Source: a virus
Taxonomy: Duplodnaviria > Heunggongvirae > Uroviricota > Caudoviricetes
DNA: 6,438 nt
Virus record (IMG/VR): IMGVR_UViG_2671180547_000008
Direction: 5' to 3' (one strand)
Position numbers and translations under genes: made by a program. A model generated the notes under the pieces. That model ran no database searches and was not told where the DNA came from. It saw only the letters and a list, made by a program, of their open reading frames with translations. This document shows, piece by piece, positions 1-6,438 of this stretch (positions are counted from its first letter, which is position 1; each line of letters opens with the position of its first letter).

Positions 1-90
1 ATTTTCTACAATCGTCAGCGTCGTCACTCTCGTCTGGGGAATATCTCCCCGGCAGCCTTCAGGGAAAAATATCATCAGATGGCTGCTTAA
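1..90 (+). CDS. Transposase C-terminal fragment (DDE/integrase-type, partial at window edge)
   Basis: Translation of 1-87 gives IFYNRQRRHSRLGNISPAAFREKYHQMAA, then TAA at 88-90. The YNxxRxHSxLGxxSPxxF pattern is the conserved C-terminal motif of IS3-like DDE transposases. Confidence 0.7.
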   Translation: MFYNRQRRHSRLGNISPAAFREKYHQMAA

Positions 91-133
91 AAAAAGAACA
101 AATGGTAGTGTCCGCTATTGCCAGTACACCTCA
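1..133 (+). mobile_element. Right end of an IS element (IS3-family-like; possibly IS600-like), with the element body lying left of the window
   Basis: Bases 1-133 are the exact reverse complement of 6306-6438, and identity stops at ...ACACCTCA (133), consistent with a TG...CA-type IS terminus. Bases 1-90 encode a transposase C-terminus. The terminal sequence resembles the IS3 terminus as I recall it (GCAATAG.GGACAC). Family assignment is from motif memory only. Confidence 0.7.
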
Positions 134-317
134 GGATAGCGGTCATGTGATGCCGGTTTCCCGGTAACTCAGCACCGGTATCTGAGTCAACGTTTTCTCT
201 ACTGGGTCATTTCCGATACGCCCTGCCTGCTGACAGGCTTTCATCACATCTGAAAATATAGCACCCTGACTGATACTGTAGTACCTAAGGTTCCAGAAAC
301 TGTGATGTATCCGGCAC

Positions 318-345
318 AGAAAAGCCCCTCCGGAGAGGGCTGGAG
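318..345 (-). terminator. Candidate intrinsic terminator downstream of the tRNA genes
   Basis: The minus strand reads GCCCTCTCCGGAGGGGC (GC-rich stem with one bulge, tetraloop) followed by TTTTCTG. It lies about 230 nt 3' of the tRNA-Arg(UCU) end. Confidence 0.3.
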
Positions 346-577
346 AGTGGCGCTATGTGCCATTGCATGATGCCGGGTGCCTCCCGGTGAATTCAGTACC
401 AGCACCTGAATCCGCGATTATCCCATATACCTACTCGCTGATTGCCCCTCCGCACAGGGGGATTCACCATGCCAGTTTCTTTTAACAAACTCCCCGCAAA
501 ACAGACAACTGTCAACCGTCTGAATTGTGAGACATTTAAAAAAAAGGCCCGCAAAAGCGAGCCAGGGAAAATAAGTG

Positions 578-654
578 TGGCGCGTTGTACTGGATTCGAA
601 CCAGTGACCGATTGCTTAGAAGGCAATTGCTCTGTCCGGCTGAGCTAACAACGC
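578..654 (-). tRNA. tRNA-Arg, anticodon UCU (reads the rare AGA codon)
   Basis: The minus-strand sequence GCGTTGTTAGCTCAGCCGGACAGAGCAATTGCCTTCTAAGCAATCGGTCACTGGTTCGAATCCAGTACAACGCGCCA folds as a 77-nt cloverleaf. Acceptor GCGTTGT/ACAACGC, D-stem GCTC/GAGC, anticodon stem ATTGC/GCAAT with loop CTTCTAA, T-arm ACTGG-TTCGAAT-CCAGT, discriminator G and encoded CCA. Confidence 0.9.
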
Positions 655-667
655 ATGATGCAGATAA

Positions 668-744
668 TGGACCGCCATCGGGGACTTGAACCCCGCGCAG
701 CCAGCTTCGAAGGCTGGCGCTCTTTCCTGATGNNNNNNNNNNNN
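668..744 (-). tRNA. tRNA-Arg, anticodon UCG (reads CGA); the 5' end of about 12 nt is hidden in the N-run
   Basis: Visible minus-strand 3' portion: ...GAGCGCCAGCCTTCGAAGCTGGCTGCGCGGGGTTCAAGTCCCCGATGGCGGTCCA. Anticodon stem CCAGC/GCTGG with loop CTTCGAA, T-arm CGGGG-TTCAAGT-CCCCG, acceptor 3' strand ATGGCGG, discriminator T, CCA. The 5' acceptor and D-stem fall in the Ns at 733-760, so the 744 boundary is extrapolated. Confidence 0.7.
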
Positions 745-760
745 NNNNNNNNNNNNNNNN

Positions 761-1733
761 GCCCGAGCGCCAGTGCCGCTTTCACTGTCGAACCCAACCC
801 CATGAAAAAATCTGCAATCAGGTCACCCGGACGACTGCTAGCGCTGATTATCTGCTGCAGCATTTCTGCCGGTTTTTCGCACGGATGTTTCCCGGGATAG
901 AACTGCACCGGTTTATGCGTCCACACATCGGTATACGGCACCTGCACCGTCACGCCAAAATACCGCCGCAGATGTTTATATTCACTCAGCAGCTCCGCAT
1001 ACTGCCGGTTCAGTGAGGTATACGTATCCACCAGCTGGTGGTGGAGCTTTTCCAGTTCACCACGCCGATGCTTCTCTTCTGCCACCCGGGCAAACAGCGC
1101 CTGTAATTTCAGATAATCGCTTTCATTCGGCAACTGCCACTGACCGGCACTGAACCAGTGCGACACCATGTTTTTCTTTCCTGTGGCATCTGCAATCTGT
1201 TTTGCCGTTATCCCCAGGGCAGCTCGCGCATCACGAAAGTAAGAAATCAGCGGGGCCATCACATGCTGTTTCAGTGCACTGCCCTTCGCCGCATACCCGG
1301 CATCTTTCGGACGATACGGCCCCTGATAATGTTCCGCGAACAGAATGCGCTCTGTGGCGGGGAAATACGCCCGCAGGCTTTCCTTGTTGCATCCGTTCCA
1401 GCGTCCGGACGGCTTCGCCCAGATAATATGGTTCAGCACACTGAAGCGTTCACGCATCATGATTTCGATATCAGATGCCAGGCGATGACCACAGAACAGG
1501 TAAAGACTTCCGGCAGGTTTCAGCACCCGCCAGAACTGCGCCAGACACTGGTCCAGCCACTTCAGGTAATCATCGTCGCCCTTCCACTGGTTATCCCAGC
1601 CCTCAGGCTTCACTTTAAAGTACGGCGGGTCCGTGACTATCAGGTCAACAGAATTTTCGGGTAACGACCGGATAAATTCCAGGCAGTCGGCGTTGATTAA
1701 CTCACAACTGGATATTTTTACAGTATTAAGCAT
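761..1733 (-). CDS. Beta-class N6-adenine DNA methyltransferase (phage-type orphan MTase); C-terminus interrupted by the N-run and probably truncated
   Basis: Starts at ATG 1733. DPPY (motif IV) lies near the N-terminus (IVTDPPYF) and the FxGxGST SAM-binding motif I (DFFMGLGSTVKAALALG) near the C-terminus; motif IV before motif I defines the beta class. There is a central HTH-like insert (ITAKQIADATGKKNMVSHWF). The six-frame ORF nominally runs to 645, but only through Ns and across the tRNA, and the post-N translation (IRKERQPSKL...) lacks the expected R-x-IG-x-E continuation. Confidence 0.85.
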
Positions 1734-1869
1734 GGATCATTAAGCCTGTCTCTGATAGGCTCATTCTGCTTTTGCGCAAAGCAGTGGGCCTGAGGTTTGC
1801 TTGTGAACCCAACGCATGAGCAGATGGCTGGTGGGTGCCCCTAACACCCACCAGCCGCCCATTTACCAC

Positions 1870-1897
1870 AAATAAAAAAGCCTTCACTGCGGAAGGC
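1870..1897 (-). terminator. Rho-independent terminator (second terminator in the late leader)
   Basis: Minus-strand stem GCCTTC, loop CGCAGT, stem GAAGGC (plus 1880-1897), followed by TTTTTTATTT (plus 1870-1879 is an A-run). The stop codon of the 65-aa ORF (1884-1886) lies inside the stem. Confidence 0.65.
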
Positions 1898-2081
1898 GTC
1901 TGTAACAACCGAACTGATAGTCTGCCAGACCCGCCATAACCAGCTGGGTCAGTATTAACTGGCAGCGTTCGCGTGAAAGGTAAGTATTCTGCGCTATCTC
2001 CCCGACTGTCGCCGGTTCGGTAACGCTTAATTCATTAAACACCACTCTGGCGGTTTCTGTCATATCCTGCTGTTTTAGCAT
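1884..2081 (-). CDS. Small winged-helix/HTH-like protein (65 aa), uncharacterised
   Basis: ATG at 2081 is preceded by AAGGAA about 7 nt upstream. The segment TVGEIAQNTYLSRERCQLILTQLVMAGLADY resembles an AsnC/MarR-type HTH. It sits between the tR'-like terminator and the second terminator, directly upstream of the MTase. Confidence 0.5.
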   Translation of the reverse strand: MLKQQDMTETARVVFNELSVTEPATVGEIAQNTYLSRERCQLILTQLVMAGLADYQFGCYRRLPQ

Positions 2082-2197
2082 GTCTTTTCCTTTTCCGGTT
2101 AACGTGACACACCAATAACTCTTGTCGAAAAAGCCAGCAAGCTGAAAGACAGGTATTCACCGCCACCAGCGCGTTTACTGTACTGACGCGATTTCAG

Positions 2198-2225
2198 TCA
2201 TAAAAAACCCGCTCGGCGGCGGGTT
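2198..2225 (-). terminator. tR'-like rho-independent terminator downstream of the Q-like gene
   Basis: The minus strand reads AACCCGC-CGCCGA-GCGGGTT (7-bp GC-rich stem) followed by TTTTATG. It lies about 45-65 nt downstream of the predicted PR'-like start. Confidence 0.7.
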
Positions 2226-2272
2226 GTAGAAACTCTTCTAACGTCAGGCATAAAACGCCCATCGTTATAACG

Positions 2273-2300
2273 AATTTACCACAGATTCCGGAAAAATCAA
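2273..2300 (-). promoter_or_regulatory. PR'-like late promoter immediately 3' of the Q-like gene
   Basis: Minus strand has -35 TTGATT (plus 2295-2300), a 16-nt spacer and -10 TAAATT (plus 2273-2278). The -35 directly abuts the stop codon of the Q-like gene (2306-2308), the same geometry as Q/PR' in lambdoid phages. Confidence 0.45.
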
Positions 2301-2305
2301 CCTTG

Positions 2306-3127
2306 TTACCTAGTTACCTTTTTTAACTGCCGCTCAGCCCATGCTTCTTCAATATCAAACCGGGTCACCAGCGCATCATAAAATTTCTTAACTGTTTTTT
2401 CCCATGACGCGCGTGTTATCTGGTTTGTCACCTCGCATATAGCATTAAATGCCTCCGTTGATGGTAGTCTTTCATAGCCACGACCACCACAACGCTGGCA
2501 GTCTCTGATAACAGGCATACCACGTTTTACCGACTCTTCACGATGAATGGCGACACCACGCCCACGGCAATCCTTACAGGCGGTGGAAACCTCACCCTTT
2601 CCGCCACACTCCGGACAGGCAACTTTTACCACCTCCCTGACTTTTTTCCATTCTTCCCAGTAAGACGGATACACACCTTTCGTACACTTTGCCCATACCG
2701 GCGGCTTACCATCCGGATACTGGATCTTGTTTGTAAAAACCTCGCTTTCAATAAATTTTTTTCCGTGACAGCAGGGGCACTGTTTTTTGCTCGCCGCGCT
2801 ACGGGCATAATCTTCAAACGCATACGAAGCCATAATACGCATCACTGCCGGTTTTATTTCTGCCGGGAGTTTTCTTAACGCCGCCACGCGATCACACCGA
2901 CTGAGTGCATATTCTGTCAGCAATTCTGTTGCCCGCTCTCTGTCATTCATACTAATGCCCATTTTCCCAAGGAACGCAGAAACCCCCATCTCAGCCCGAT
3001 TCTGTGTCATGCCCTGCGCGGCCATCACATCAGTGATACTCAGCGCATCTTTCGACGTTGAGGCCGATGCATCAGTCAGGCCGGGGGATTTTGGGGAGTA
3101 GTATTTCGGTAAATCTTCCAGTTTCAT
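2306..3127 (-). CDS. Putative late-gene antiterminator (Q-like, QuuQ-type) with repeated CxxCxGxG zinc-finger motifs
   Basis: 273-aa ORF. Its ATG (3127-3125) overlaps the rusA stop as ATGA. It carries one CPCC and three CxxCxGxG motifs (CPECGGKG, CKDCRGRG, CQRCGGRG). Position after rusA and before a promoter-terminator pair matches Q genes of lambdoid phages. Identity is inferred from synteny and motifs, not alignment. Confidence 0.5.
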   Translation of the reverse strand: MKLEDLPKYYSPKSPGLTDASASTSKDALSITDVMAAQGMTQNRAEMGVSAFLGKMGISMNDRERATELLTEYALSRCDRVAALRKLPAEIKPAVMRIMASYAFEDYARSAASKKQCPCCHGKKFIESEVFTNKIQYPDGKPPVWAKCTKGVYPSYWEEWKKVREVVKVACPECGGKGEVSTACKDCRGRGVAIHREESVKRGMPVIRDCQRCGGRGYERLPSTEAFNAICEVTNQITRASWEKTVKKFYDALVTRFDIEEAWAERQLKKVTR

Positions 3128-3504
3128 TTTTTGACCTGCCCTTCAAGCATTATGGGATAAATCTTCACCCCCAGACGTCCACCAGATACTGGCTGAGCAC
3201 GAACGATATTGATTTCATCAAACTGCTCATCGTCCATTAGCAACCCCGCATGCGTCAGCGCATCCAGCGGCGCTTTCAGAATATTGTCCAGGTCACGGCG
3301 GCGCTTATCCGGTGGTTCTGCAATAATTTTTATTGCCAACCTTCCGGACAGGCTTAATTTCAGCCGCTGCTGGCGAACAATAAGCGCCACTGCCCGGCGA
3401 TAACGCTCCCCGGCTTTTGATACAAAATATGTGCTGCCACGACGACGCCAGTAAGTGTTCACCGTCGGCGGGTAAGGTAAAACAAATTCTATGCGCTCGG
3501 TCAT
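3124..3504 (-). CDS. rusA: RusA-type Holliday junction resolvase (crossover junction endodeoxyribonuclease)
   Basis: The 126-aa product has LPYPPTVNTYWRRRG, DKRRRDLDNILKAPLDALTHAGLLMDDEQ and VSGGRLGVKIY, which match the recalled RusA signature blocks ([48 protein letters not shown]). Its start follows the DUF968 stop directly (TAAATG). Confidence 0.9.
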   Translation of the reverse strand: MTERIEFVLPYPPTVNTYWRRRGSTYFVSKAGERYRRAVALIVRQQRLKLSLSGRLAIKIIAEPPDKRRRDLDNILKAPLDALTHAGLLMDDEQFDEINIVRAQPVSGGRLGVKIYPIMLEGQVKK

Positions 3505-4563
3505 TTATGCTTTCCACTTCAGAACACCCGAATTTCTCGCGTGCATTAAAAAACGAATCAGCAACAACAGCTGACTGCCGTGTTTCTCTTCAAAATCTTT
3601 TACTCCGGCATGTAGTTCGTTACGGCATTTACGGCATAACGGAATAACAAACAAATCATCAGCCTTTGTTCCCATCCCTCCCAGTCCATGACCAATGATG
3701 TGATGCGGATCATCTGCCTGATTGCCACACGTCATGCATTTCTGCGTTTTTACCCAGCGCGTGTATACAGGCATCTCTTCCCGTTGTGATTTCTGGCGCT
3801 GGAGATACTGAGCCGGTGACTCCGGATCAACGGCAATGCTGACCACCGTCTTTTCCTGTGGTGGGTTCTGTTGCTGGTGGACGTGAGGCAGTAACGCAAT
3901 ATTTTTTGTGCGCTGCTTCAGTATGCTGGTGGCTGTCTGCTCTCCCGGTATGATGTCGCTTTCACTGTACACAGAGCGAATTTTTTCCGCACGCAACCCC
4001 AGCGAACGACGTAATACCGCTTCCGGTAGCGCGTCCGCCACCTGATTGCGGACCGCCCACCAGGATAATTCAGCCAGAGATAATTCACGCTCCTGCGTAC
4101 CGCTTATTGCGTGACCGATGACGTCAATCATCCATGCTGACAGGTTTTGATGAGCAAGTTGCTCGAGTGATTCGGATGTCTGGTCACGCAGCTGGTTGTC
4201 GCAGTGCCAGCACAACACCATTGCGCCGGTACCATAACGGTGAATGACGGTTTCGCTGTGATGATAATCGCCGTGTGGCCACTGGCAGGATTTAATATGG
4301 CGCAACAGCCAGTCAGACAATGCACCAGCACCACCAGCAGCACGAATCACCCGTGCGTTACTGAAAAACGGCAGCAATGTTTTGTCTTCCACCAGCGGCT
4401 GGCGAGCGGCAGGAACGACCCCGGACGGCAGATTACGCATGCTTTTTGGTTCCGGCTCCACCAGTATTCTGCCGTTATGGAATGCTGACATTGATTCACG
4501 GCCTGGCTTAACGATAACCAGACCGAGTTCCGGTACCAGAACAGGTCGAAGTAATACCCGCAC
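3505..4563 (-). CDS. DUF968-like prophage protein (YdfU-like) with a C-terminal HNH/zinc-binding-like motif
   Basis: 352-codon ORF starting with GTG at 4563, 4 nt after GGAGG; an alternative ATG at 4491 gives MSAFHNGRIL. The C-terminus has CMTCGNQADDPHHIIGHGLGGMGTKADDLFVIPLCRKCRNELH (CxxC...HH...CxxC...H). Size and position between a small gene and rusA/Q match ydfU in Qin-like prophages as I recall them. Confidence 0.6.
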   Translation of the reverse strand: MRVLLRPVLVPELGLVIVKPGRESMSAFHNGRILVEPEPKSMRNLPSGVVPAARQPLVEDKTLLPFFSNARVIRAAGGAGALSDWLLRHIKSCQWPHGDYHHSETVIHRYGTGAMVLCWHCDNQLRDQTSESLEQLAHQNLSAWMIDVIGHAISGTQERELSLAELSWWAVRNQVADALPEAVLRRSLGLRAEKIRSVYSESDIIPGEQTATSILKQRTKNIALLPHVHQQQNPPQEKTVVSIAVDPESPAQYLQRQKSQREEMPVYTRWVKTQKCMTCGNQADDPHHIIGHGLGGMGTKADDLFVIPLCRKCRNELHAGVKDFEEKHGSQLLLLIRFLMHARNSGVLKWKA

Positions 4564-4564
4564 A

Positions 4565-4920
4565 TTACCTCCAGATCCGTTGCTGGAATGTGCGGGACGG
4601 ACGCGTTGGCCGTTCGGAGTAAGGGAGCCTGACGGAGATTATCCAGTGACGGTAGTCGAGGCTAAGGGCTTTTTTAACCTCGCATCCGCGCCTGCGGTAA
4701 CACTGAATGAGCCATTCGGCCTGTTCTTCAGTGCATGGGGGATGCTGGTACCAATCAGATTTAAATGCGTGAGAGCGCCGCCCGTGCCTGCTGGCAAAGA
4801 CGGCTGAATTATCAGAATTGTGTAGTCTGGAAGGCAGTGGCTGACAATAGCGCCATTCTCAACGCGCACAGTATAGAGGCCATCTTCACTAAAAATTTCA
4901 CGTAATTCTTCGATTTTCAT
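4565..4920 (-). pseudogene. Small nin-region gene with a frame discontinuity (rem-position gene); an intact 93-aa frame runs 4639-4920 but looks degenerate after about 40 aa
   Basis: ATG at 4920 has GGAAGGA 8 nt upstream. Frame 0 reads MKIEELREIFSEDGLYTVRVENGAIVSHCLPDYTILIIQPS, then turns low-complexity (LPAGTGGALTHLNLIGTS...). A second frame with no start codon reads ...TEEQAEWLIQCYRRRGCEVKKALSLDYRHWIISVRLPYSERP... and ends with TAA at 4565-4567, overlapping the DUF968 start region (GGAGGTAATGTG). Confidence 0.4.
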
Positions 4921-5003
4921 CAACAGAATCCTTCCAGATAAATAGCACTCCCCTGTTCGGGGTCCATCCCTCTTCTCCCTGCGCGCTACTTAAGTATTTT
5001 TGA

Positions 5004-5032
5004 TTCTATTCCGGCACCATCTAAAACTTCAA
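5004..5032 (-). promoter_or_regulatory. Candidate sigma70 promoter for the nin-like operon (small gene, DUF968, rusA, Q)
   Basis: Minus strand has -35 TTGAAG (plus 5027-5032), an 18-nt spacer and -10 TAGAAT (plus 5004-5009). It lies between the hok terminator and the RBS of the 4920 gene. Confidence 0.35.
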
Positions 5033-5040
5033 ACGCGTTG

Positions 5041-5071
5041 AAAATAAAAACAAAAACCCGCCGAAGCGGGT
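5041..5071 (-). terminator. Rho-independent terminator of the hok transcript
   Basis: The minus strand reads ACCCGC-TTCG-GCGGGT followed by TTTTGTTTTTATTTT. It lies about 75 nt 3' of the hokD stop. Confidence 0.7.
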
Positions 5072-5140
5072 TAAGTGTGGGTGCATTGAGGATGCCTGCC
5101 CCATCAGAGGTGGCGAGGGATTTCTCCCCCGCCTGGTCTC

Positions 5141-5296
5141 TTACTCCTCAGGTTCGTAAGCTGTGAAGACAGCGACCTCCGTCTGGCCGGTTCGAATTCG
5201 TACCTCGCAGAGGTCTTTCCTCGTTACCAGTGCCGTCACTATGACGGTTAAACAGATGACGATCAGGGCGATTAACATCGCCTTTTGCTGCTTCAT
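5141..5296 (-). CDS. hokD: Hok-family type I toxin (HokD/RelF-like, 51 aa)
   Basis: The product MKQQKAMLIALIVICLTVIVTALVTRKDLCEVRIRTGQTEVAVFTAYEPEE has the Hok single transmembrane helix and the conserved C-terminal pattern (compare Hok ...[26 protein letters not shown]), and matches my recollection of E. coli HokD. An in-frame upstream ATG at 5353 (MNGKSRLASYVPKGKEKQA-) occupies the position of the mok start in the R1 hok/sok leader. Confidence 0.9.
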   Translation of the reverse strand: MKQQKAMLIALIVICLTVIVTALVTRKDLCEVRIRTGQTEVAVFTAYEPEE

Positions 5297-5344
5297 AGCC
5301 TGCTTCTCCTTGCCTTTCGGCACGTAAGAGGCTAACCTAGATTT

Positions 5345-5425
5345 GCCGTTCATAGATTGAGCCTCAGATTAATGTTAAGCGTCTTGCCGGACGCGTAATG
5401 TTAACTGGGGCTTTTCTCTATCTGC
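5345..5425 (+). ncRNA. Candidate Sok-like antisense RNA with its promoter (-35 at 5310-5315, -10 at 5333-5338)
   Basis: The plus strand has TTGCCT, a 17-nt spacer and TAACCT, which aligns by recollection with the R1 sok promoter (TTGCGC, 17 nt, TATCCT). The predicted transcript is antisense to the mok-like start region and ends in a U-rich stretch (GGGGCTTTTCTCTATCTGCCTTTTGG). Exact 5' and 3' ends are not determined. Confidence 0.35.
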
Positions 5426-5472
5426 CTTTTGGTGTTCATGCCTGAGACAGATAGCCTCAAGCACCCGCTGCA

Positions 5473-5501
5473 ATTCTACTTAACTCTCCTTTTCCCGCAA
5501 A
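5473..5501 (-). promoter_or_regulatory. Candidate hok mRNA promoter
   Basis: Minus strand has -35 TTTGCG (plus 5496-5501), a 17-nt spacer and -10 TAGAAT (plus 5473-5478), followed by GCTTGAGGCTATCTG, which resembles the recalled 5' end of R1 hok mRNA (GCGCTTGAGGCTTTCTG). Confidence 0.4.
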
Positions 5502-5507
5502 CCGTTT

Positions 5508-5591
5508 TTATCCCCAGCGGCAAATCGAATACACCACCAGCGCCACCGCCATCGCAATTCCTACCGTTGTTAATGCTTCAGGCCAGGTCAT
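5508..5591 (-). CDS. 27-codon hydrophobic micro-ORF, translationally coupled to the 114-aa ORF
   Basis: Its ATG (5591-5589) overlaps the TGA stop (5590-5588) of the upstream ORF as ATGA. The product [27 protein letters not shown] has an 18-residue hydrophobic core with a basic/aromatic C-terminal cap, as in small membrane peptides. Below the ORF-track length cutoff. No homology evidence. Confidence 0.3.
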
Positions 5592-5932
5592 CGTAAAATA
5601 TCCTCCACGCTTATCAGTCCGTTCCGCTCCAGATAACTCATCGCCTTATCCGGTAATTTGCAGTCTGGCTTCGCTTTCCTCAGTTGCCAGGTTAACTGCT
5701 TTACCAGCATGGTTAACTCATCGACCAGACGCTGATATCCCACTGGTTTGTATTCATGCAATTTACCGGCTGGCTCTGCTGCCAGCGATACCAGTGCGAT
5801 TTCCAGAACAGCAATATCCATCTTATATGTGCGGATGATGTCATGGTCGATTGTGCCCGGTATGCACAGTCTCTGTGCTTCAATAGTCTCCTCTGCGTGA
5901 GCTATTAACTGCTCTCTGGTAAAAGTCGTCAT
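5588..5932 (-). CDS. Hypothetical protein (114 aa), paralogous to the upstream 55-aa ORF
   Basis: Its ATG overlaps the stop of the upstream ORF (ATGA at 5932-5929). The N-terminus MTTFTREQL... and the block [10 protein letters not shown]...EYK match MTTITKERI... and [10 protein letters not shown]...EKY in the 55-aa ORF. Amino-acid composition is protein-like. Confidence 0.55.
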
Positions 5933-6096
5933 GCCGTAGCCCCTTCTTGATATTTTTCAAACCAGAACACAACCGGCTCTGCTTCCAGCGATGCCAGCGC
6001 AATCCGTGCCAGTTCCATTTGTTCACCACGGGTAAGCCCGTTTTCAAGCGGGTTTTTAATGAACAATTCAATACGTTCTTTGGTAATAGTGGTCAT
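5929..6096 (-). CDS. Hypothetical small protein (55 aa), first gene of the coupled trio
   Basis: ATG at 6096 is preceded by a strong SD (TAAGGAG, 6 nt spacer). The product is [55 protein letters not shown] and its stop overlaps the next ATG. Not in the ORF track (under 60 aa). Confidence 0.45.
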
Positions 6097-6106
6097 GTGT
6101 TACTCC

Positions 6107-6305
6107 TTAACCCGCAGTGCTTTCAACTGATGAGGGGAACAAAATCTTTTCATCAAACCCTGCATTCATATCATGAACAGCAACACACCAATCCATCGAC
6201 GAACGATTATCAAGAGCCTCCATGATTTCATCCATGCGGCGTAGGTCATACAGGTAAATGCTTTTATCGCCAATGGTGTAAAAGCCAATTTTTTTCGGTG
6301 ATGGA
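6107..6305 (-). pseudogene. 3' remnant of a gene truncated by the right-hand IS insertion
   Basis: The frame runs from the IS junction to TAA at 6107-6109: ...KKIGFYTIGDKSIYLYDLRRMDEIMEALDNRSSMDWCVAVHDMNAGFDEKILFPSSVESTAG. The track ORF 6107-6337 only finds an ATG inside the IS, so the N-terminus is IS-derived. The SD of the next gene overlaps its stop, so it was once the upstream gene of that operon. Confidence 0.4.
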
Positions 6306-6438
6306 TGAGGTGTACTGGCAATAGCGGACACTACCATTTGTTCTTTTTTTAAGCAGCCATCTGATGATATTTTTCCCTGAAGGCTGCCGGGGAGATATTC
6401 CCCAGACGAGAGTGACGACGCTGACGATTGTAGAAAAT
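6306..6438 (-). mobile_element. Right end of a second, inverted copy of the same IS element, with the element body lying right of the window
   Basis: Exact reverse complement of 1-133. The plus strand begins TGAGGTGTACTGGCAATAGCGGACAC at 6306. Confidence 0.7.
6349..6438 (-). CDS. Transposase C-terminal fragment (partial at window edge), identical to the copy at 1-90
   Basis: Mirror image of 1-90; the stop codon is at 6349-6351 on the minus strand. Confidence 0.7.
   Translation of the reverse strand: MFYNRQRRHSRLGNISPAAFREKYHQMAA

What the first reader, a model, noticed from the sequence alone, without database searches (positions are those of the whole stretch)
578..1733. Methyltransferase lacks its C-terminal region where two tRNA genes and a 28-nt N-run begin
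Motif I (DFFMGLGSTVKAALALG) ends at about 761, and beta-class MTases normally continue for some 30-60 aa beyond it. Here the sequence enters an N-run (733-760) and then a tRNA (668-744) with no MTase-like reading frame. Either the gap hides more sequence than 28 nt, or the tRNA cassette was inserted into or recombined with the MTase 3' end, leaving a truncated and possibly inactive enzyme.
Basis: partly seen in the sequence, partly recalled or inferred. Interest (0 to 1): 0.55.

Follow-up and report, generated by a model that had tools for sequence, protein, structure and literature searches.

The report
Assembly gap hides methyltransferase end
The "truncated" phage DNA methyltransferase is almost certainly an illusion: the 28 N's stand in for about 221 unresolved bases that, in every near-identical Shigella/E. 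coli sequence, hold the enzyme's normal last 28 amino acids and a third tRNA gene.

Summary
A 28-N run sits at 733-760. The methyltransferase (MTase) frame on the minus strand (1733 down to 761) stops being readable right after ...DFFMGLGSTVKAALALG. tRNA-Arg(UCU) lies at 578-654, and a 5'-cut tRNA-Arg(UCG) lies at 668-732.

The truncation is very probably not real. Outside the N's, the window matches complete Shigella sonnei chromosomes: 732 of 732 bases on the left and 5676 of 5678 on the right. In all 10 of those chromosomes, window bases 732 and 761 are 221 nt apart. The same holds in all 62 viral and 23 metagenome contigs carrying the same exact flanks. None shows a 14-44 nt spacing.

The hidden 221 nt hold MTase residues 325-352 (RRAIGVELETERFEQTVREVQDLVSQNG) plus the stop, a 40-nt spacer, tRNA-Ile(CAU) ileZ, a 7-nt spacer and the first 12 nt of argN. 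The exact 352-aa protein is on record on 997 contigs.

What is really there is the known lambdoid/Stx-phage late-region module: Q antiterminator, then an M.EcoGII-type beta-class adenine MTase, then ileZ-argN-argO. Here it sits in an IS-riddled S. sonnei prophage remnant. A genuine 193-nt deletion cannot be strictly excluded (about 7%). Interest is low.

The parts
1..133 (+). 3' end of an IS3-family insertion sequence (transposase C-terminus, stop at 88-90). It is an inverted copy of 6306-6438, so the window runs from IS end to IS end.
   Evidence: bases 1-133 match both IS copies in L047; E. coli relatives match only from base 133; 100-aa plus 272-aa ORFs; NCBIfam transpos_IS3, 330 bits.
312..501 (-). 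Rfam STnc100 sRNA match, downstream of the tRNA cluster.
   Evidence: 123.6 bits against a gathering score of 47.
546..563 (-). Terminator-like hairpin plus T-run, immediately after tRNA-Arg(UCU).
578..654 (-). tRNA-Arg(UCU), argO. Intact.
   Evidence: annotated as argO in Stx2a phage AP012536.1.
668..732 (-). 3' 65 nt of tRNA-Arg(UCG), argN. Its 5' 12 nt are lost in the N-run.
   Evidence: L047 8577-8653 corresponds to window 744-668.
733..760 (.). Run of 28 N's: unresolved sequence standing for about 221 nt in all relatives. On the minus strand the hidden bases are 2 nt plus 27 codons plus the stop of the MTase (86 nt), a 40-nt spacer, tRNA-Ile(CAU) ileZ (76 nt), a 7-nt spacer, and the first 12 nt of argN.
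761..1733 (-). Codons 1-324 (plus the first base of codon 325) of a beta-class, M.EcoGII-type prophage DNA adenine methyltransferase. DPPY is at residues 35-38 and F-x-G-x-G (FMGLG) at 309-313.
   Evidence: (DNA identical to the 352-aa S. sonnei gene).
1880..1897 (-). Terminator-like hairpin upstream of the MTase.
1884..2081 (-). 65-aa conserved hypothetical ORF between Q and the MTase.
   Evidence: the same 198-nt ORF occupies this position in E. coli and in the Stx2a phage. No Pfam hit.
2206..2225 (-). Terminator-like hairpin about 80 nt downstream of Q (tR'-like position).
2306..3127 (-). Q-type late antiterminator, 273 aa.
   Evidence: (PF03589, 179 bits).

Best explanation
The N-run at 733-760 is an unresolved assembly or scaffold gap, and its length (28) does not reflect the true distance. 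The real locus has about 221 nt there.

With those bases restored, the gene is an ordinary full-length 352-aa prophage DNA methyltransferase. It is beta-class and belongs to the M.EcoGI/M.EcoGII family. Its stop codon lies 40 nt upstream of the usual ileZ-argN-argO tRNA cluster.

The module sits downstream of the Q antiterminator and behind terminator-like hairpins, in a defective, IS-interrupted lambdoid prophage of Shigella sonnei or a near-identical strain.

Inferred mechanism, by homology:
- The MTase and the tRNAs are late-operon cargo, transcribed only when Q lets RNA polymerase read through the terminators.
- The MTase then methylates adenines in replicating phage DNA, probably with little sequence specificity, which protects progeny from restriction.
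- The tRNAs supply rare Ile and Arg codons.

The gap interpretation and the gene content are shown by comparison. The timing of expression and the specificity are inferred.
For: 1. Apart from the N's, the window is 100% identical over 1-732 and 99.96% over 761-6438 (two SNPs, at 2269 and 5099) to complete S. sonnei chromosomes. The match includes both IS junctions.
2. In all 10 of those chromosomes the two flanks are 221 nt apart.
3. Exact-flank pattern scans found 62 viral contigs, all at a 221-nt spacing as judged by match length; pairwise blast confirmed this for 59 of the 60 that could be paired, the exception being the two-copy contig L115. They also found 23 of 23 metagenome contigs at 221 nt. 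No contig in either collection had a spacing of 14-44 nt.
4. The top 25 E. coli genomes span 1692-1694 nt (about 2147 nt in the two x2-MTase records, H11/H12) for the 1501-nt query, so they too carry 219-222 nt where the window has 28 N's.
5. The hidden 221 nt encode RRAIGVELETERFEQTVREVQDLVSQNG plus the stop, then tRNA-Ile(CAU), then the 5' end of tRNA-Arg(UCG).
6. The restored protein covers Pfam PF01555 positions 1-219 of 221, against 1-203 for the visible part.
7. The exact 352-aa protein, whose first 324 codons are DNA-identical to the window, is on record on 997 contigs and is named as S. sonnei/Shigella.
8. No direct repeat longer than 2 nt lies at the 193-nt offset that a precise deletion would need.
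9. The window runs from IS end to inverted IS end, as a short-read contig would. Most contigs carrying its Q protein are 5-10 kb long.
10. The module Q / 65-aa ORF / 352-aa methylase / ileZ / argN / argO is annotated in Stx2a phages at about 95% identity. The protein is 95% identical to the phage 1720a-02 MTase, which PMC5778455 lists as very similar to M.EcoGII.
Against: - The evidence is comparative. The source assembly and its reads were not available, and the source was found neither in genome contigs nor by exact-protein look-up.
- 28 is not a conventional placeholder length such as 10, 20, 50 or 100. It looks like an estimated gap size, and an estimate that is 193 nt too short is large.
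- If the N's are a length-preserving mask applied by a data provider, the strain would have to carry a real 193-nt deletion.
Confidence: 0.9

Rival explanations
1. The N's replace exactly 28 real bases. This strain then carries a genuine 193-nt deletion that removed MTase residues from about 326 onward, the stop codon, ileZ and possibly the 5' end of argN. That would leave a truncated, inactive MTase lacking the strand after motif I and its conserved acidic residue, or one fused to tRNA-derived codons.
For: - Taken literally, the window shows this.
- The locus is a decaying prophage full of IS insertions, where deletions are common.
- Partial or variant forms of this protein exist in databases, although those listed are marked partial at contig ends.
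Against: - None of 95 sequences with identical flanks has a short spacing, and nothing was found with a 14-44 nt spacing.
- No microhomology exists to mediate such a deletion.
- A rare deletion would have to coincide exactly with the only unresolved stretch in the window.
Confidence: 0.07
2. The tRNA cassette was inserted into, or recombined with, the 3' end of the methyltransferase gene. On this view the tRNA-MTase juxtaposition is itself the lesion.
For: Only the apparent abutment of tRNA sequence and MTase motif I in the window.
Against: - The tRNA cluster is the normal downstream neighbour of an intact MTase in S. sonnei, E. coli, E. albertii and Stx2a phages, at 40-49 nt after the stop codon.
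- Both flanks of the N-run are base-for-base identical to that intact arrangement.
Confidence: 0.02

Closest known systems
Shigella sonnei chromosomal lambdoid prophage remnant (for example strain 53G, HE616528.1; CP104423.1)
   Same: - DNA is 100% / 99.96% identical on the two sides of the N-run, with the same gene order (hok, DUF968, RusA, Q, 65-aa ORF, MTase, tRNAs).
- Most of the ten chromosomes read also carry the same flanking IS3-family insertions.
   Different: The complete genomes have 221 resolved bases where the window has 28 N's. There are also two SNPs, at 2269 and 5099.
M.EcoGI / M.EcoGII, prophage-encoded beta-class non-specific adenine DNA methyltransferases of E. coli O104:H4 (Murray et al. 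2018, PMC5778455)
   Same: - Beta-class order: N-terminal DPPY, central target recognition domain, C-terminal FxGxG.
- Length of about 349-352 aa and a lambdoid prophage location.
- 95% identity to the phage 1720a-02 MTase, which the paper names as very similar to M.EcoGII.
- 99% identity to a 349-aa E. coli form.
   Different: - I did not have the M.EcoGII sequence itself, so direct identity was not computed.
- The S. sonnei allele has Leu instead of Ser between the glycines of motif I (FMGLG against FMGSG).
- Its tail is 352-aa type (…DLVSQNG) rather than 349-aa type (…DLIV).
- Activity and specificity are untested.
Q / DNA methylase / ileZ-argN-argO / stx2AB late-region module of Stx2a-converting phages (for example AP012536.1)
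   Same: Same 65-aa ORF, same 1059-nt methylase gene and same three tRNAs in the same order, about 95% identical in one ungapped piece.
   Different: - There are no stx genes here.
- Downstream of argO are an STnc100-like sRNA region and an IS insertion.
- The Q gene is of a different type: 273 aa with a DnaJ-like zinc-finger region.

Membership tests
Beta-class N6-adenine/N4-cytosine DNA methyltransferase (Pfam PF01555) | Significant match to the family profile. | tested here: met
   Visible 324 aa: 123.7 bits against a cut-off of 26.7. Restored 352 aa: 144.1 bits.
Beta-class N6-adenine/N4-cytosine DNA methyltransferase (Pfam PF01555) | Circular-permuted motif order: catalytic DPPY (motif IV) N-terminal, target recognition domain in the middle, AdoMet-binding FxGxG (motif I) C-terminal. 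| tested here: met
   TDPPYF at residues 34-39 and DFFMGLGST at 307-315 of the window ORF. The PDB alignments match both halves.
Beta-class N6-adenine/N4-cytosine DNA methyltransferase (Pfam PF01555) | Segment after motif I, carrying the conserved acidic residue (…IGxE…), is present. | tested here: inconclusive
   Not readable in the window, where the profile stops at position 203 of 221. Present as RRAIGVELE in every sequence with identical flanks, and it aligns to RDFVGYEIN of PDB 9c3u.
M.EcoGI/M.EcoGII family (non-specific adenine MTase of lambdoid prophages) | Close sequence relationship to M.EcoGII or its named homologues. | tested here: met
   95% identity over 352 aa to the phage 1720a-02 MTase, which PMC5778455 names as very similar to M.EcoGII.
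M.EcoGI/M.EcoGII family (non-specific adenine MTase of lambdoid prophages) | Methylates adenine in any sequence context; silent in the lysogen. | not testable with these tools
   Needs expression plus SMRT/nanopore sequencing or a digestion assay. The Leu in motif I makes activity of this allele uncertain.
ileZ-argN-argO tRNA cluster of lambdoid/Stx phages | Three tRNAs in the order Ile(CAU), Arg(UCG), Arg(UCU), just downstream of the late-region methylase. | tested here: inconclusive
   In the window, argO is intact, 65 of 77 nt of argN are visible, and ileZ is hidden. All three are present in the identical-flank S. sonnei loci, and they are annotated ileZ/argN/argO in AP012536.1.
Assembly or scaffold gap whose N count is not to scale | Flanks of the N-run are collinear with relatives, and relatives consistently have a different, fixed length between them. 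| tested here: met
   221 nt in 10 chromosomes, 62 viral contigs and 23 metagenome contigs. None has a 14-44 nt spacing.
Assembly or scaffold gap whose N count is not to scale | Direct evidence from the source assembly (AGP or gap annotation, or reads spanning the gap). | not testable with these tools
   The source record was not found.

The most novel reading that the evidence does not exclude
The 28 N's are true to length, and this S. sonnei-like strain carries a private 193-nt deletion. That deletion removes ileZ, the MTase stop codon and the enzyme's last 28 residues, inactivating a potentially toxic non-specific adenine methyltransferase in a prophage remnant.

A related point the data leave open: the Ser-to-Leu change between the motif I glycines is carried by the exact S. 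sonnei protein, which is seen on 997 contigs, and it may already have disabled the enzyme.
Probability: 0.07. Interest if true: 0.15.

Novelty: not a real feature. Interest (0 to 1): 0.05.

Why it matters
It matters mainly as a caution. An N-run in a draft assembly is a placeholder, so a gene that "ends" at one should not be called truncated, pseudogenised or fused.

Taken at face value, this window would yield three false calls:
- an MTase pseudogene;
- a missing tRNA-Ile;
- a spurious 362-aa ORF reading through tRNA genes.

The underlying locus is a well-known lambdoid/Stx-phage late-region module (Q, an M.EcoGII-type methylase, ileZ-argN-argO). No new biology follows from the finding itself.

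Tried and rejected
- Looked for the source assembly. A genome-contig scan with the MTase returned relatives at up to 98% identity but not the source. An exact look-up of the X-containing 362-aa ORF found nothing.
- Looked for a real short-spacing allele with exact flanks and 14-44 nt between them. There were no hits in viral contigs or metagenome contigs. Positive controls with 208-236 nt between the flanks gave 62 and 23 hits, all at 221 nt.
- Looked for microhomology that could mediate a precise 193-nt deletion. Nothing longer than 2 nt was found.
- Looked for an internal repeat of the 221-nt segment within the restored locus that might explain the assembly break. None was found at k=15 or k=20. 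One IMG/VR contig (L115) does carry the whole MTase-tRNA module twice. This shows that paralogous copies exist in some strains, but it does not explain this particular gap.
- Literature searches for ileZ/argN/argO returned nothing relevant in the held library. The gene names are instead taken from the GenBank annotation of AP012536.1.
- No E. coli complete genome carries the left IS junction, which pointed to Shigella. That was confirmed through the exact Q protein.

Full report
**1. Observation**

The window contains a single N-run, at 733-760, 28 bases long.

On the minus strand an ATG at 1733 opens a frame whose 324 readable codons end with ...RPGDLIADFFMGLGSTVKAALALG. Base 761 is the first base of codon 325. 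The 324 residues match Pfam PF01555 (N6_N4_Mtase) at 123.7 bits but reach only profile position 203 of 221. The mechanical ORF that reads through the N's (645-1733, 362 aa) continues as translated tRNA DNA.

ARAGORN and Rfam call one tRNA, tRNA-Arg(UCU), at 578-654 on the minus strand. Bases 668-732 are the 3' 65 nt of a second tRNA, tRNA-Arg(UCG), whose 5' 12 nt would fall inside the N-run. The one correction is that only one tRNA is intact in the text, and a third is hidden.

**2. Where the window comes from**

The exact 273-aa Q protein of the window is encoded on complete Shigella sonnei chromosomes, for example HE616528.1 and CP104423.1. Against these, window 1-732 is 100% identical and 761-6438 is 99.96% identical, with two SNPs at 2269 and 5099.

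Window 1-133 and 6306-6438 are inverted copies of the end of an IS3-family element (100-aa plus 272-aa ORFs). The window therefore runs from IS end to IS end, as a short-read contig of an IS-rich genome would. No complete E. coli genome has the left IS junction.

On the minus strand the gene order is hok/sok, DUF968 (352 aa), RusA, Q antiterminator, a 65-aa ORF, the MTase, then the tRNAs. This is the late-regulatory region of a lambdoid prophage.

**3. What lies under the N's**

In all ten S. sonnei chromosomes, window base 732 corresponds to locus position 8589 and base 761 to position 8367. That leaves 221 nt between them, not 28. On the gene strand these 221 nt are made up as follows:

| Segment | Length |
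|---|---|
| 2 nt plus 27 codons plus the stop, completing a 352-aa MTase (...ALALG-RRAIGVELETERFEQTVREVQDLVSQNG*) | 86 nt |
| Spacer | 40 nt |
| tRNA-Ile(CAU), which ARAGORN labels "Met" and GenBank annotates as ileZ | 76 nt |
| Spacer | 7 nt |
| First bases of tRNA-Arg(UCG) | 12 nt |

The restored protein covers PF01555 positions 1-219 of 221. The restored segment aligns with the strand after motif I in solved beta-class enzymes (RRAIGVELE against RDFVGYEIN in PDB 9c3u). From established knowledge of M.RsrI- and PvuII-type structures, this strand carries the acidic residue that contacts the AdoMet ribose. The family therefore does need this tail.

**4. How general the 221-nt spacing is**

- An exact-match scan used 21 nt of left flank and 16 nt of right flank, with 208-236 nt allowed between them. 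It found 62 viral contigs and 23 metagenome contigs, and every match was 258 nt long, which means a 221-nt spacing.
- Pairwise blast confirmed 221 nt in 59 of the 60 viral contigs that could be paired. The exception is a contig carrying two copies of the module.
- The same scan with 14-44 nt between the flanks found nothing in either collection.
- In E. coli, 1717 records cover at least 80% of the 1501-nt query. The top 25 span 1692-1694 nt (about 2147 nt in the two x2-MTase records, H11/H12), so they too hold roughly 220 nt in place of the 28 N's. An explicit alignment with strain EC931 shows 222 nt.
- The exact 352-aa protein, DNA-identical to the window over its first 324 codons, is on record on 997 contigs and is named as S. 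sonnei/Shigella.
- Among 134 family sequences, 126 carry the D-x-F-x-G-x-G-[ST] motif. All but one of these continue 33-44 residues after it, which is 24-35 residues past ...ALALG.

**5. Could it still be a real deletion?**

A length-true N-run would require a 193-nt deletion with both end points inside the 28 unresolved bases.

- I found no direct repeat longer than 2 nt at that offset.
- I found no example of such an allele anywhere.
- N's mark bases the assembler could not resolve. It is unlikely that a rare deletion would coincide exactly with the only unresolved stretch of a contig that is otherwise identical to its relatives.

Against my reading, 28 is not a standard placeholder length. 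It looks like an estimated or partly filled gap, and the estimate would be off by 193 nt. I also could not find the source assembly or its reads.

The last is contradicted by the intact MTase-then-tRNA arrangement in S. sonnei, E. coli, E. albertii and Stx2a phages.

**6. What the module is and how it probably works**

The MTase is beta-class, with DPPY at residues 35-38 and FxGxG at 309-313. It is 99% identical to a 349-aa E. coli prophage enzyme and 95% identical to the MTase of phage 1720a-02. The M.EcoGII paper names the 1720a-02 enzyme as very similar to M.EcoGII, the non-specific adenine MTase that is silent in the lysogen and toxic when expressed (PMC5778455).

In Stx2a phages the same 65-aa ORF, 1059-nt "DNA methylase" gene and ileZ-argN-argO cluster lie between Q and stx2AB, at about 95% DNA identity in one ungapped piece.

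Terminator-like hairpins lie on the gene strand downstream of Q (2206-2225), before the MTase (1880-1897) and after argO (546-563).

The following is inferred, not shown. The MTase and tRNAs are transcribed only under Q-mediated antitermination during lytic growth. The enzyme then broadly methylates adenines in progeny DNA as an anti-restriction measure, and the tRNAs decode rare Ile and Arg codons. In this IS-disrupted S. sonnei remnant the module is probably silent.

**7. Comparison and novelty**

Everything resolved here is already known and annotated. The apparent truncation is not a real feature of the locus. It is a reading artefact of an N-run that is not to scale. Interest is low.

**8. 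Leads that went nowhere**

- The literature searches for ileZ/argN/argO returned nothing relevant.
- The source look-ups failed.
- I found no local repeat that would explain why the assembler broke at this spot.

Noticed in passing
window 797-799 (minus strand; residue 312 of the MTase): The S. sonnei allele has Leu between the two glycines of the AdoMet-binding motif I (FMGLGST). Of 126 family sequences that carry the motif, the other 125 have Ser there (G-S-G). The exact Leu-bearing 352-aa protein is seen on 997 contigs, so it appears widespread in S. sonnei. It might weaken or abolish the activity of an enzyme that is toxic when expressed.
   Followed up: partly
window 312-501 (minus strand): Strong Rfam match to sRNA STnc100 (123.6 bits, full length). 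It lies just downstream of argO, in the position that stx2AB occupies in Stx2a phages.
   Followed up: no
window 1-133 and 6306-6438: The two ends of the window are inverted copies of the same IS3-family IS end (100-aa plus 272-aa transposase ORFs in relatives). The window looks like a complete short-read contig bounded by collapsed IS copies. The restored length would be 6631 nt.
   Followed up: partly
window 5141-5353 and 5291-5466 (minus strand): A hok-family type I toxin ORF (70 aa) with an Rfam sok antitoxin RNA match (112 bits) lies in the prophage early/late junction region.
   Followed up: no
L115 (IMGVR_UViG_2681813267_000008) 4718-4975 and 7089-7346; also E. coli CB7453 (H11/H12): The whole MTase-ileZ-argN-argO module occurs twice, 2371 nt apart, on one contig that also shares the window's IS junction at 100% identity. 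Two E. coli records likewise show "DNA-methyltransferase (x2)". Tandem amplification of this module exists in some strains.
   Followed up: partly
L003, L007, L017, L022, L028, L046 (genome contigs): Enterobacterial prophage MTase loci at 76-98% identity occur in genomes or MAGs labelled Collinsella, Bacillus, Geobacteraceae, Vagococcus and Chryseobacterium. This is most likely contamination or mis-binning in species-representative genomes.
   Followed up: no
P0001 (386 aa, Logan contig of 2026 nt): A variant of the MTase has an internal tandem duplication of about 34 residues (YKHLRRYFGVT...YPGKHPC repeated) just before motif I.
   Followed up: no
window 2269 and 5099: These are the only two differences from six S. 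sonnei complete genomes over 6.4 kb: A against G at 2269 and C against A at 5099. Both are intergenic or of unknown effect.
   Followed up: no
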